Positions 53,398 through 60,869 of a stretch of DNA of 64,000 nt are shown here, piece after piece. The stretch lies in assembly GCF_009914755.1 (NCBI RefSeq), contig NC_060925.1, one strand, 5' to 3'. The stretch is from the human T2T-CHM13v2.0 reference genome, Homo sapiens. The notes beneath the pieces are model-generated. The model was not told where the DNA came from. It was given only the letters and a program-made list of their open reading frames with translations, and ran no database searches. Every line of letters begins with the position of its first letter. Position 1 is the first letter of the stretch. The position numbers and the translations under genes were made by a program.

Positions 53398-53849
53398 AGT
53401 ATATTTGTTTCCGGGAGCTGCCATAACAAATTCCCACAAACTGGGTGACTTAGAACAACAGAAATTTATTATCTCACAGTTCTGGAGGCTAGAAGTTTGA
53501 AATCAAGGTGTTGGTAGGGCCACGTTACCTTGAAAGCCTCTAGGGGAGGATCTTTCCTTGCTTCTTCAAACTTCTGATAGCCCCAGGTTTTCCCTAGTTT
53601 ATGGCAGCATAACTCCAATCTCTGCCTCCCTCTCTACAGAGCGTTCTTCCTGTGTGTCTACCTCTTCACATGGTCATCTTTTCCTCTCATAAGAACATCT
53701 GTCATATTGAATTAAGGGCCCACCCTAATGACCTCCTCTTAATTTGTTTACATCTGCAAAGATTTTATTTCCACATAAGGTCACATTACAGGAACCACAG
53801 GTTAGGGCTGCAACATATGCTTTTGGAGGTCACAATTCAACCCATAACG
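53398..53849 (-). mobile_element. MLT1C-like MaLR solo LTR
   Basis: gctgccataacaaattcccacaaactgggtgacttagaacaacagaaatttatt...cacaattcaacccataac. Confidence 0.85.
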
Positions 53850-53875
53850 CTCAGTATAACCAGAAGAGCTAAGTG

Positions 53876-54012
53876 GAGACTGGCTTAACCTCCTAGCCTT
53901 ACATCTTTCTCTCATGCTGGATGCTTCCTGCCCTGGAACATCAGACTCCAGGTTCTTCAGCTTTTGGGACTCAGACTGGCTACCTTGGCCTATTGTGGGA
54001 CCTTGTGATCAT
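53876..54012 (+). mobile_element. MLT2A (HERV-L LTR) R-region fragment carried inside the L1 insertion
   Basis: agactggcttaacctcctagccttacatctttctctcatgctggatgcttcctgccctggaacatcagactccagg...ggcctattgtgggaccttgtgatcat. Confidence 0.85.
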
Positions 54013-54488
54013 TCGGATTCAGGGCAAGGGGAGGCTGAACAAAAAAAAAGATGGCCAAATAGGAACAGCTCCAGTCTACAGCTCCCAGCATGAGTGATGC
54101 AGAAGACAGGTGATTTCTGCATTTCCATCTGAGCTACCGGGTTCATCTCACTAGGGAGTGCCAGACAGTGGGCACAGGACAGTGGGTGCAGTGTACCCTG
54201 CGCAAGCCGAAACAGGGCGAGGCATTGCCTCACTCGGGAAGTGCAAGGGGTCAGGGAGTTCCCTTTCCTAGTCAAAGAAAGGGGTGACAGACGGCACCTG
54301 GAAAATCGGGTCACTCTCACCCTAATACTGCGCTTTTCCGACGGGCTTAAAAAACGGCGCACCAGGAGATTATATGCCGCACATGGCTCGGAGGGTCCTA
54401 CGCCCACGGAGCCTCGCTGATTGCTAGCACAGCAGTCTGAGACCAAACTGCAAGGTGGCAGCGAGGCTGGGGGAGGGGTGCCTGCCAT
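54009..54488 (-). CDS. L1 antisense ORF0-like frame, open for 159 codons
   Basis: MAGTPPPASLPPCSLVSDCCASNQRGSVGVGPSEP... matches the L1 ORF0 N-terminus; GCAATGG context; expression unknown. Confidence 0.4.
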   Translation of the reverse strand: MAGTPPPASLPPCSLVSDCCASNQRGSVGVGPSEPCAAYNLLVRRFLSPSEKRSIRVRVTRFSRCRLSPLSLTRKGNSLTPCTSRVRQCLALFRLAQGTLHPLSCAHCLALPSEMNPVAQMEMQKSPVFCITHAGSCRLELFLFGHLFFCSASPCPESE

Positions 54489-55071
54489 TGCCCAGGCTTG
54501 CTTAGGTAAACAAAACAGCCAGGAAGATCGAACTGGGTGGAGCCCACCACAGCTCAAGGAGGCCTGCCTGCCTCTGTAGGCTCCACTTCTGGGGCCAGGG
54601 CACAGACAAACAAAAAGACAGCAGTAACCTCTGCAGACTTAAATGTCCCTGTCTGACAGCTTTGAAGAGAGCAGTGGTTCTCCCAGCACGCAGCTGGAGA
54701 TCTGAGAACCGGCAGACTGCCTCCTCAAGTGGGTCCCTGACCCCTGGCCCCCGAGCAGCCTAACTGGGAGGCACCCCCCAGTAGGGACAGACTGACACCT
54801 CACATGGCGGGGTACTCCTCTAAGACAAAACTTCCAGAGGAACGATCAGACAGCAGCATTCGCGGTTCACAAAAATCCGCTGTTCTGCAGCCACCGCTGC
54901 TGATACCCAGGCAAAAGGGTCTGGAGTGGACCTCTAGCAAACTCCAACAGACCTGCAGCTGAGGGTCCTGTCTGTTAGAAGGAAAAGTAACAAACAGAAA
55001 GGACATCCACACCAAAAACCCATCTGTACATCACCATCATCAAAGACCACAAAGTAGATAAAACCACAAAG

Positions 55072-56125
55072 ATGGGGAAAAAGCAGAGCAGAAAAACTGG
55101 AAACTCTAAAAAGCAGAGCACCTCTCCTCCCCCAAAGGAACGCAGTTCCTCACCAGGAACAGAACAAACCTGGATGGAGAATGACTTTGATGAGTTGAGA
55201 GAAGAAGGCTTCAGACGATCAAACTACTCCGAGCTACGGGAGTACATTCAAACCAAAGGCAAAGAAGTTAAAAACTTTGAAAAAAATTTAGATGAATGTA
55301 TAACTAGAATAACCAATATAGAGAAGTGCTTAAAGGAGCTGATGGAGCTGAAAGCCAAGGCTTGAGAACTACGTGAAGAATGCAGAAGCCTCAGTAGCCG
55401 ATGCAATAAACTGGAAGAAAGAGTATTAGTGATGGAAGATGAAATGAGTGAAATGAAGCGAGAAGGGAAGTTTAGAGAAAAAAGAATAAAAAGAAATGAA
55501 AAAAGCCTCCAAGAAATATGGGACTATGTGAAAAGACCAAATCTACATCTGATTGGTGTACCTGAAAGTGACGGGGAGAATGGAACCAAGTTGGAAAACA
55601 CTCTGCAGGATATTATCCAGGAGAACTTCCCCAATCTAGCAAGGCAGGCCAACATTCAGATTCAGGAAATACAGAGAACGCCACAAAGATACTCCTCAAG
55701 AAGAGCAACTCCAAGACACATAATTGTCAGATTCACCAAAGTTGAAATGAAGGAAAAAATGTTTTCCTTCATTTCAAGCCAGAGAGAAAGGTGGGATTTC
55801 TCCTTCAAGCCAGAGAGAAAGGTCGGGTTACCCTCAAAGGGAAGCCCATCAGACTAACAGCAGATCTCTCAGCAGAAACTCTACAAGCCAGAAGAGAGTG
55901 GGGGCCAATATTCAACTTTCTTAAAGAAAAGAATTTTCAACCCAGAATTTCATATCCAGCCAAACTAAGCTTCATAAGTGAAGGAGAAATAAAATACTTT
56001 ACAGACAAGCAAATGCTGAGAGATTTTGTCACCACCAGCCCTGCCCTAAAAGAGCTCCTGAAGGAAGCACTAAACATGAAAGGAACAACCGGTACCAGCC
56101 GCTGCAAAATCATGCCAAAATGTAA
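55072..56125 (+). pseudogene. L1 ORF1p, disrupted
   Basis: MGKKQSRKTGNSK...; premature TGA 55363-55365 (CGA>TGA), +38-nt insertion at ~55762, further frameshift near the end. Confidence 0.95.
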
Positions 56126-56188
56126 AGAACATCGAGACTAGCAAGAAACTGCATCAACTAATGAGCAAAATAACCAGCTAACATCATA

Positions 56189-60012
<3,824 letters not shown>

Positions 60013-60869
60013 ACAATGAGAACACATGGACACAGGAAGGGGAATATCACACTCTGGAGACTGTTGTGGGGTGGGGGGATGGGGGAGGGATAGCATTAGG
60101 AGATATACCTAATGCTAAATGACGAGTTAATGGTTGCAGCACACCAGCATGGCACATGTATACATATGTAACTAACCTGCACAATGTGCACATGAACCCT
60201 AAAACTTAAAGTATAATAATAATAAAATTAAAGAAAAGAGCTAAGTGATTTGCCTGAATATATTTCATTACTTACGCCCTTATTCTTGGCTTTTTGGCTA
60301 AGAATCTTCCATATCTTCTCAGGCTTGAAGCCCAGCCCATCGTTTTCTCTTTGTGACTTTTATCTGCCCAACCTCATTTTTCAGGAAGATCTCAGACCCT
60401 CACAGATCAGCCATAATGCAGACCCATCTTGACTCGGCCACTCCAGGAAGCTTGTTCTGTTGTTGGATATGTTAAATTGTTTAAAGTTTGCTTTTGTCTT
60501 TGGTCAAAATCTGAGTCACTGTACTTTCTGCTCTTTGGTCTGAATTGTTTTTTTTTTCCTTGTAGTAACACAAAAACAACACATCTATTCTTAATAATAA
60601 TGTCATATTTTTATAGCGCTTTAGATTGCAAAGAGATTTCACATTATCTGATTAAATCTCAACAAAAATTTCTTGTAAATTGATATGCAATAAATTGTCT
60701 GTGATATTACAATCTTTGAGCTGTGAAACTTGGAATTCCTCTCAAAGTCATCTGACTCCAGGGCTAGGTTTTTACATTGTACCTGCATTGTAGTTCTCTT
60801 CCTTACCACACTCTTTTAAACATTTGACCAAGCACTTACATAGCCTACCTTCTAGTAGTCCCATTCTCA

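What the first reader, a model, noticed from the sequence alone, without database searches (positions are those of the whole stretch)
53864..54056. L1PA3 with a 5' transduction from an MLT2A (HERV-L LTR)-promoted spliced RNA
Seen: the 12-bp TSD AAGAGCTAAGTG lies at 53864-53875 and 60236-60247, so 53876-54047 inserted together with the L1; joining the flanks restores a MIR-like agagctaagtgatttgcc. The extra DNA is an MLT2A fragment (53876-54012) plus a ~35-nt linker of unknown origin. From my recall of the MLT2A consensus, the fragment starts (G)AGACTGG about 30 nt after the TATA box and stops at GATC(G/A)T, immediately before the GTGAGT splice donor; that is a complete first exon with no U3 or downstream LTR. 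Established: MLT2A1/2 LTRs act as DUX4-responsive cleavage-stage promoters that splice from this donor. Inference: the source L1 was transcribed from an upstream ERVL LTR rather than its own KRAB-ZNF-targeted promoter, and the whole spliced RNA was reverse-transcribed (G53876 could be cap-derived). This would be a fossil of LTR-driven L1 mobilisation in the early embryo or germline.
Basis: partly seen in the sequence, partly recalled or inferred. Interest (0 to 1): 0.85.

Follow-up and report, generated by a model that had tools for sequence, protein, structure and literature searches.

The report
L1 insertion carrying an ERV-L LTR exon
A 6.2-kb L1 retrotransposon on human chromosome 1 was pasted in together with a copy of the first exon of a retroviral-LTR-started, spliced RNA, a rare fossil of a kind described in 2026 that may show an old viral promoter once drove a jumping gene.

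Summary
A 12-bp target-site duplication (53864-53875, 60236-60247) encloses three pieces. The first is a 137-nt piece of an ERV-L-type LTR (53876-54012). The second is a 28-nt sequence found nowhere else in T2T-CHM13, followed by an A run. The third is a near-full-length, decayed L1 (54048-60235).

I aligned the LTR piece with 29 genomic copies of the family. It starts 29-31 nt after their TATA-like box. It ends exactly where 28 of 29 copies continue with a GT splice donor. It is therefore a cDNA copy of a first exon, not a resident LTR.

Whether the LTR drove the L1 is not shown. I found no donor locus and no sibling insertion. The A run at the junction also fits two rivals: reverse-transcriptase template switching, and an L1 landing later in the A tail of an older retrocopy. 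Primate orthologues, which would separate these, were not available.

The class is already in print. Law & Burns 2026 list 17 L1 insertions that carry foreign RNA at the 5' end, most of them spliced first exons on near-full-length L1s, including one proven cryptic acceptor 15 bp upstream of a source L1. This locus is not in their tables. Verdict: new member of a known kind, moderately interesting.

The parts
53864..53875 (+). 5' copy of the 12-bp target-site duplication (AAGAGCTAAGTG); top-strand context AG/AAGA
53876..53876 (+). First inserted base, G. Either templated (6 of 29 family copies have G here) or an untemplated, possibly cap-derived, G (21 of 29 have T)
53877..54012 (+). ERV-L-type (MLT2A-like) LTR first exon. 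It runs from the predicted transcription start, 29-31 nt after the family's TATA-like box, to the last base before the family's GT splice donor. It has no U3 and no sequence downstream of the donor
53986..53987 (+). Junction of a private 18-21-nt deletion relative to the family copies. No other genomic copy carries it
54013..54040 (+). 28-nt linker of unknown origin, unique in T2T-CHM13. It contains GGGGAGG (54028-54034), which resembles the G-rich 5' terminus of related L1s
54041..54049 (+). Run of nine A. The last two overlap the L1 motif AAGATGG
54048..60223 (+). L1PA-type element. It starts at AAGATGGCC and so lacks the usual 10-13 nt ending in AGCC. Its ORFs are broken. The nearest genomic relatives are 93-95% identical in the 5' UTR and 96-97% at the 3' end
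60224..60235 (+). Short A-rich tail (aaaattaaagaa) of the L1
60236..60247 (+). 3' copy of the target-site duplication

Best explanation
This is most likely one L1-mediated (target-primed reverse transcription) insertion whose template began with the first exon of an RNA started at an ERV-L (MLT2A-type) LTR.

The proposed steps are:
1. Transcription started about 30 nt after the LTR's TATA-like box.
2. The RNA was spliced from the LTR's own GTGAGT donor, which removed the rest of the LTR and the intron.
3. The splice went to a cryptic acceptor a few tens of nucleotides upstream of a near-full-length L1 lying downstream in the same orientation.
4. The L1 proteins copied this chimeric RNA to its 5' end, possibly adding one G, and integrated it at an AG/AAGA site with a 12-bp duplication.

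Shown: the exon copy is RNA-derived and lies within the L1's duplication.

Inferred: exon, linker and L1 were one RNA (an LTR-driven, spliced 5' transduction). The tissue and time of the event are also inferred.
For: - TSD encloses exon, linker and L1.
- Exon boundaries coincide with the TATA-directed start and the splice donor. An A/T box lies 29-31 nt upstream, and GT follows in 28 of 29 copies.
- The exon is in sense orientation and the L1 is near full length, starting at AAGATGG as 5 of 29 relatives do.
- This matches the published class. In 15 of 17 cases the 5' piece is sense to the L1, and the L1s are mostly longer than 5 kb (PMC13174262, section 13).
- A proven case exists of a donor spliced to a cryptic acceptor 15 bp upstream of a source L1, supported by RNA reads (PMC13174262, section 14).
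- Short unmapped stretches (2-12 nt in four sense first-exon rows) and 8-24-nt intronic pieces lie between exon and L1 in Table S5.
- MLT2A1 forms chimeric RNAs with LINE-1 at human genome activation (review passages in PMC13690279; PMC13579372).
- The L1 tail is only 12 nt, the shortest of 7 compared. There is no extra A tract of the kind a second, older tail would leave.
Against: - No donor locus. The 29-nt linker pattern with up to 3 mismatches, the 83-nt junction query, the deletion junction and the linker/L1 junction each found only this locus.
- No sibling carries exon and L1 together (40 of 2224 candidates scored).
- The flank of a source L1 is ordinary genomic DNA. It should survive even if the L1 allele was lost, so its absence from a complete assembly is unexplained.
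- The splice junction joins exon to linker, not exon to L1.
- Nine A's sit exactly at the linker/L1 junction. In this model they must be source flank, yet only 3 of 29 related L1s have such an A-rich 5' flank.
- Co-arrival of the two pieces in primates was not testable.
Confidence: 0.5

Rival explanations
1. One insertion event, but two RNAs. The L1 reverse transcriptase copied an ordinary L1 RNA almost to its 5' end. It then switched template onto the A-rich 3' end of a separate, short, LTR-initiated spliced RNA and copied that to its cap. This would be a Buzdin-type chimeric retrogene. The LTR would not have driven the L1.
For: - The A run (54041-54049) sits exactly at the junction, where a poly(A) or A-rich acceptor end would lie.
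- The L1 lacks its first 10-13 nt.
- The splice junction is internal to the 5' unit, so it does not argue against switching.
- Table S5 of PMC13174262 has an mRNA/L1 chimera with an A tract between the parts, and one row annotated as a template switch.
- U6/L1 and similar chimeras are well documented (PMC13174262, section 10).
Against: - Published template-switch chimeras usually carry strongly 5'-truncated L1s (section 10). The two such rows in Table S5 have L1 parts of about 450 nt. Here the L1 is 6.2 kb.
- By my reading, there is no AATAAA or ATTAAA in the 40 nt before the A run, so a polyadenylated 163-nt RNA with a 28-nt last exon is unlikely.
- The linker, which this model treats as exon 2 of a fixed locus, is absent from the assembly.
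Confidence: 0.22
2. Two sequential insertions. First, a short processed retrocopy of the LTR-initiated spliced RNA (exon 1, 28 nt and a poly(A) tail) inserted and made the 12-bp duplication. Later, an unrelated L1 inserted into that A tail. Its own duplication consists only of A's and so cannot be seen.
For: - The A run lies immediately 5' of the L1 start.
- 3 of 29 related full-length L1s (L037, L039, L056) sit directly behind long A runs. By eye these are tails of older retroposed elements, so L1s landing in A tails are common.
- The outer duplication would look the same as it does now.
Against: - The A-rich stretch between the L1 3' end and the duplication is only 12 nt, the shortest of 7 L1 tails compared. 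This model expects the L1 tail, a duplicated A stretch and the rest of the older tail together.
- An all-A duplication of 9 nt or less is on the short side.
- No poly(A) signal precedes the A run.
- By my rough estimate, a full-length L1 hitting one particular tail is rare, about 0.1% per tail. That figure rests on recalled copy numbers.
Confidence: 0.18
3. The LTR piece is the remnant of an old LTR resident at this site, beside which the L1 inserted. The 12-bp repeat would be coincidence.
For: Copies of this LTR family are numerous (1561 candidates).
Against: - The piece lies inside the duplication.
- Its two ends coincide with the transcription start and the splice donor.
- The sequence after the 3' duplication copy does not continue the LTR.
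- By my estimate the 12-mer has a chance of about 1e-4.
Confidence: 0.02

Closest known systems
5' transduction / exon-L1 chimeric insertions of Law & Burns 2026 (Cell Genomics, PMC13174262). The paper lists 17 hg38 loci, including MAP3K13/L1PA5, FHIT/L1PA4 and RAP1GDS1/L1PA2
   Same: - A TSD encloses a sense-oriented first exon plus a near-full-length L1.
- The exon ends at its splice donor.
- Short unmapped sequence lies at the junction.
- The source is usually not found.
- An extra 5' G is seen in several rows.
   Different: - Here the exon is a repeat, the R region of an ERV-L LTR, not a unique gene or lncRNA exon.
- The unmapped linker is longer (28 nt plus an A run).
- The locus is absent from their four readable tables. 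That check rests on my hg38 position, which I estimated from a recalled gene coordinate.
SVA_F1 (MAST2 exon 1) and chimpanzee pt_SVA_D6 (STK40 exon 1)
   Same: A first exon was captured by splicing onto the 5' end of a non-LTR retrotransposon and then retrotransposed (PMC6139936 passages).
   Different: - Those became expanding subfamilies of 84 and 94 copies, with the acceptor inside the element.
- Here there is a single copy with no siblings.
- Here the acceptor, if there was one, lay outside the L1.
U6/L1 and mRNA/L1 chimeric retrogenes made by template switching or RNA ligation (Buzdin type)
   Same: A bipartite insertion within one TSD, with the 5' part in sense and copied to its RNA 5' end.
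   Different: Those L1 parts are usually heavily 5'-truncated and the 5' part is a complete small RNA. Here the L1 is 6.2 kb and the 5' part is a spliced exon plus 28 nt.
MLT2A1-derived chimeric RNAs of the human 8-cell embryo
   Same: A common LTR-derived 5' head joined to variable tails that are often LINE-1 (review passages). DUX4 binds MLT2A1 (PMC6341076 passages).
   Different: Those are RNAs seen today. This is a DNA copy fixed millions of years ago. I saw no base-level start or donor positions in print to compare with, and I did not see the primary study.

Membership tests
Exon-L1 5' chimeric insertion (spliced 5' transduction) | One target-site duplication encloses the foreign 5' piece and the L1 | tested here: met
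   Exact 12-bp repeat at 53864-53875 and 60236-60247
Exon-L1 5' chimeric insertion (spliced 5' transduction) | The 5' piece is sense to the L1 and starts at the donor transcript's start site | tested here: met
   Same strand as the L1. The piece starts 29-31 nt after the family's TATA-like box. No CAGE data were available
Exon-L1 5' chimeric insertion (spliced 5' transduction) | The 5' piece ends at a splice donor | tested here: met
   28 of 29 family copies continue with GT, mostly GTGAGT, right after the column of 54012
Exon-L1 5' chimeric insertion (spliced 5' transduction) | The L1 is full length or nearly so | tested here: met
   6188 nt. It starts at AAGATGG, as 5 of 29 relatives do
Exon-L1 5' chimeric insertion (spliced 5' transduction) | Both pieces arrive together in a multi-species alignment | not testable with these tools
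   No primate genomes were on hand
Exon-L1 5' chimeric insertion (spliced 5' transduction) | A source locus ordered promoter, intron, acceptor, L1 | tested here: not met
   Only the locus itself was found. Most published cases also lack a source, so this feature supports the class but is not required for it
Template-switch chimeric retrogene | The 5' part ends at the 3' end of a complete RNA (poly(A) with a signal, or a small-RNA terminus), and the L1 is usually truncated | tested here: inconclusive
   An A run is present. No AATAAA or ATTAAA lies in the 40 nt before it. The L1 is not truncated
MLT2A / HERV-L LTR | Match to the named consensus in Dfam or RepeatMasker | not testable with these tools
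No named repeat library was on hand.
MLT2A / HERV-L LTR | LTR anatomy and linkage to retroviral internal sequence | tested here: met
   - A TATA-like box, a donor and a poly(A) signal are present.
- 7 of 29 copies share downstream sequence and 6 of 29 share upstream sequence.
- One extended copy (L066) has RVT_1, dUTPase and RVP frames on the LTR strand, though in an odd order.
- 22 frames close to the LTRs gave no Pfam match.
L1PA3 | Diagnostic positions of the subfamily consensus | not tested
   Only the distance to the nearest genomic copies is known: 93-95% in the 5' UTR and 96-97% at the 3' end. By eye the 5' UTR resembles the L1PA4 row of Table S5 in several stretches

The most novel reading that the evidence does not exclude
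A DUX4-responsive ERV-L LTR, active at the cleavage stage, drove and spliced onto a downstream L1, and that chimeric RNA produced a heritable insertion. If so, the MLT2A1-LINE-1 chimeric RNAs now seen at human genome activation are competent for retrotransposition. An L1 lineage could then borrow an embryonic retroviral promoter when its own is silenced.
Probability: 0.3. Interest if true: 0.7.

Novelty: new member of a known kind. Interest (0 to 1): 0.5.

Why it matters
L1s are thought to depend on their own internal promoter, which host KRAB zinc-finger proteins target. Exon-L1 chimeras show that foreign promoters can rescue or drive L1s. An ERV-L LTR exon at the head of an L1 would tie that mechanism to the one promoter family known to fire massively at human genome activation, a stage from which insertions are inherited.

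The locus also gives an independent, DNA-level record of where this LTR family started and spliced its RNA millions of years ago. It points to repeat-derived leaders as a class that catalogues restricted to unique 5' sequence may miss.

Tried and rejected
- Donor and sibling search. All four searches found only the locus itself: the 29-nt linker pattern with up to 3 mismatches, an 83-nt junction query, the 31-nt deletion junction and the 34-nt linker/L1 junction. A 201-nt query spanning exon, linker and L1 found no other place that covers both halves (40 of 2224 candidates scored, so this was not exhaustive).
- Best LTR match as donor. I rejected chrX C23:70803578-70803720 (87%). Its deletion is different, and it reads GGCC and TTTTGG where the window differs.
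- Linker origin. There was no match longer than 11 nt in the window or in 29 LTR loci with their flanks. The 10-11-nt hits fall in stretches masked as repeats and are at chance level.
- Restored MIR site. The right flank (165 nt) found no paralogue, so I did not pursue this.
- Naming the LTR family through neighbouring coding sequence. 22 frames next to LTR copies gave no Pfam match. One extended locus gave RT, dUTPase and protease frames in an order I could not interpret.
- Passing a window reference as a search pattern was not accepted.
- Literature. Searches listed no paper on an MLT2A-exon/L1 insertion. One search found nothing. I saw only listings and the passages cited.

Full report
**What is in the sequence**

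The 12-mer AAGAGCTAAGTG occurs at 53864-53875 and again at 60236-60247. The second copy follows directly on a 12-nt A-rich tail (60224-60235). That tail ends a 6.2-kb L1 whose homology to other genomic L1s begins at 54048 with AAGATGGCC. Between the first copy and the L1 lie 172 nt that are not L1. By my arithmetic, a 12-mer anchored at the tail end and found within a few hundred bases upstream of the L1 has a chance of about 1e-4. So everything from 53876 to 60235 lies within one target-site duplication. The L1 is old and dead. Its longest plus-strand frames are 520, 499 and 142 aa. Its nearest genomic relatives are 93-95% identical over 353 nt of the 5' UTR (40 of 4929 candidates scored) and 96-97% over the last 313 nt (40 of 1100 scored). 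This suits a hominoid-age L1PA element, but I could not check the label L1PA3 against a named consensus.

**The extra DNA is a first exon of an LTR-started RNA**

Positions 53876-54012 match a large repeat family (40 of 1561 candidates scored, all 40 matching). No match extends into 54013-54047. I aligned the window with the 29 fetched copies and 120 nt of their flanks and read the boundaries column by column.

- Upstream of the column of 53876, the copies continue with LTR sequence that the window lacks. This includes an A/T-rich box 29-31 nt upstream, which reads exactly TATAAA in 9 of 29 copies and a close variant such as AATAAA in the others.
- Downstream of the column of 54012, 28 of 29 copies continue with GT, mostly GTGAGT. 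A poly(A) signal follows about 12 nt later. The window continues with unrelated sequence instead.
- The intact copies have 153-161 nt between the two columns. The window has 137 because of a private 18-21-nt deletion at 53986/53987 that no other genomic copy shares.

The fragment is therefore the stretch of an LTR that an RNA would keep if it started at the TATA-directed site and was spliced at the LTR's own donor. An LTR resident at this site could not be trimmed to those two points by chance, and the sequence after the 3' duplication copy does not continue the LTR. Ungapped identity to individual copies is 88-93%.

The first base, G53876, is T in 21 copies, G in 6, C in 1 and A in 1. The six G copies all read GGCC where the window, like the T copies, reads GGCT. 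An untemplated, possibly cap-derived, G is therefore plausible but unproven. Similar extra 5' bases are listed in Table S5 of PMC13174262.

The family behaves as a retroviral LTR. Seven of 29 copies share downstream sequence and six share upstream sequence. One extended copy has reverse transcriptase, dUTPase and protease frames on the LTR strand, in an order I could not interpret.

**The linker**

Positions 54013-54040 (28 nt) are followed by nine A's (54041-54049), the last two of which overlap the L1 motif. The 29-nt pattern with up to 3 mismatches occurs once in the 3.1-Gb assembly, at this locus, with zero hits for the reversed control. An 83-nt query across the junction had a single candidate, itself. 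The linker/L1 junction is likewise unique. Within the window and the 29 LTR loci nothing longer than 11 nt matches.

The linker contains GGGGAGG (54028-54034). In 22 of 29 related L1s, a G-rich stretch ending in AGCC precedes AAGATGG. The same is seen in published L1 5' ends. So the true L1 terminus may lie at 54028, with 13 odd nucleotides replacing AGCC, and the real linker may be only 15 nt. I cannot decide this.

That a complete human assembly lacks the linker is unexplained under every model, because each model expects a genomic source.

**How it arose: three readings**

All three readings share a secure core: L1 machinery reverse-transcribed an LTR-initiated, spliced RNA and fixed it in the germ line. 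They differ on whether that RNA also contained the L1.

The LTR donor was spliced to a cryptic acceptor just upstream of a downstream L1, and the whole RNA was copied.
  - This mechanism is documented. Law & Burns (PMC13174262; I read sections 10, 13 and 14 and parts 1-2 of Table S5) describe 17 L1 insertions carrying mRNA or lncRNA sequence. Six of them end exactly at donors, and most sit on L1s longer than 5 kb.
  - One source is proven. The RAP1GDS1 exon 2 donor is spliced to an acceptor 15 bp upstream of an intronic L1PA2, supported by RNA reads.
  - Short unmapped or intronic pieces between exon and L1 are common in their table.
- M2. The reverse transcriptase finished an ordinary L1 RNA and jumped onto the A-rich end of a separate LTR-started RNA. 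The A run at the junction fits this. Against it, known switch chimeras carry strongly truncated L1s, and no poly(A) signal precedes the A run.
- M3. A short retrocopy inserted first and the L1 later landed in its A tail. This is not far-fetched: 3 of 29 related L1s sit directly behind long A runs that look like tails of older elements. Against it, the A-rich stretch 3' of the L1 is only 12 nt, the shortest of seven compared. M3 expects two tails and a duplicated A stretch there.

In M1 the A run must be source flank, which about one L1 in ten shows. My weights are M1 about 0.5, M2 about 0.2 and M3 about 0.2. They rest partly on rough priors of my own.

**What is known**

The kind is in print, from 2026. 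SVA_F1 (MAST2 exon 1) and chimpanzee pt_SVA_D6 (STK40 exon 1) are older examples of exon capture by splicing (PMC6139936 passages).

This locus is not in the four readable supplementary tables of PMC13174262.
- No coordinate begins with 1856, 1857 or 1858, and no MLT2 or ERVL term occurs.
- I read 16 of the 17 rows of Table S5.
- My hg38 position for the locus is estimated from a recalled gene coordinate.
- Three PDF supplements could not be read.

MLT2A1 is bound by DUX4 and opens at the 4- to 8-cell stage (PMC6341076 passages). It also forms chimeric RNAs, many of them with LINE-1, at genome activation (review passages in PMC13690279; commentary PMC13579372). I did not see the primary study. 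No listing or 58 describes an LTR-exon/L1 insertion.

**Verdict**

The claims about KRAB-ZNF escape and embryonic timing are untested. This is a new member of a recently described kind, notable because the captured exon is a retroviral LTR's. Primate orthologues and a wider search for the linker would settle it.

Noticed in passing
L037, L039, L056 (5' flanks of related full-length L1s): Three of 29 L1 relatives start directly behind A runs of 8 to more than 20 nt. By eye these runs follow Alu-like 3' ends, so insertion of full-length L1s into older A tails looks frequent in this subfamily.
   Followed up: partly
L066 (G000:C4:102504500-102513800), minus strand: Downstream of an LTR copy of the family lie frames matching RVT_1 (two pieces), dUTPase and RVP. 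Their order does not fit a simple ERV-L provirus, so this may be a mosaic of two elements.
   Followed up: no
L002 (G000:C23:70803578-70803720): The best-matching LTR copy has its own 14-nt deletion overlapping the window's private 18-21-nt deletion, and an Alu-like sequence right after its poly(A) signal. This stretch of the LTR may be prone to deletion.
   Followed up: no
window 53700-53860: From recall, the left flank of the insertion reads like the 3' part of an old MaLR-type LTR rather than a MIR. I did not check this against any library.
   Followed up: no
window 54009-54557, minus strand: A 182-aa open frame (TTG start, bacterial table) runs antisense through the L1 5' UTR and into the linker. 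The listing is mechanical and is not evidence of a gene.
   Followed up: no
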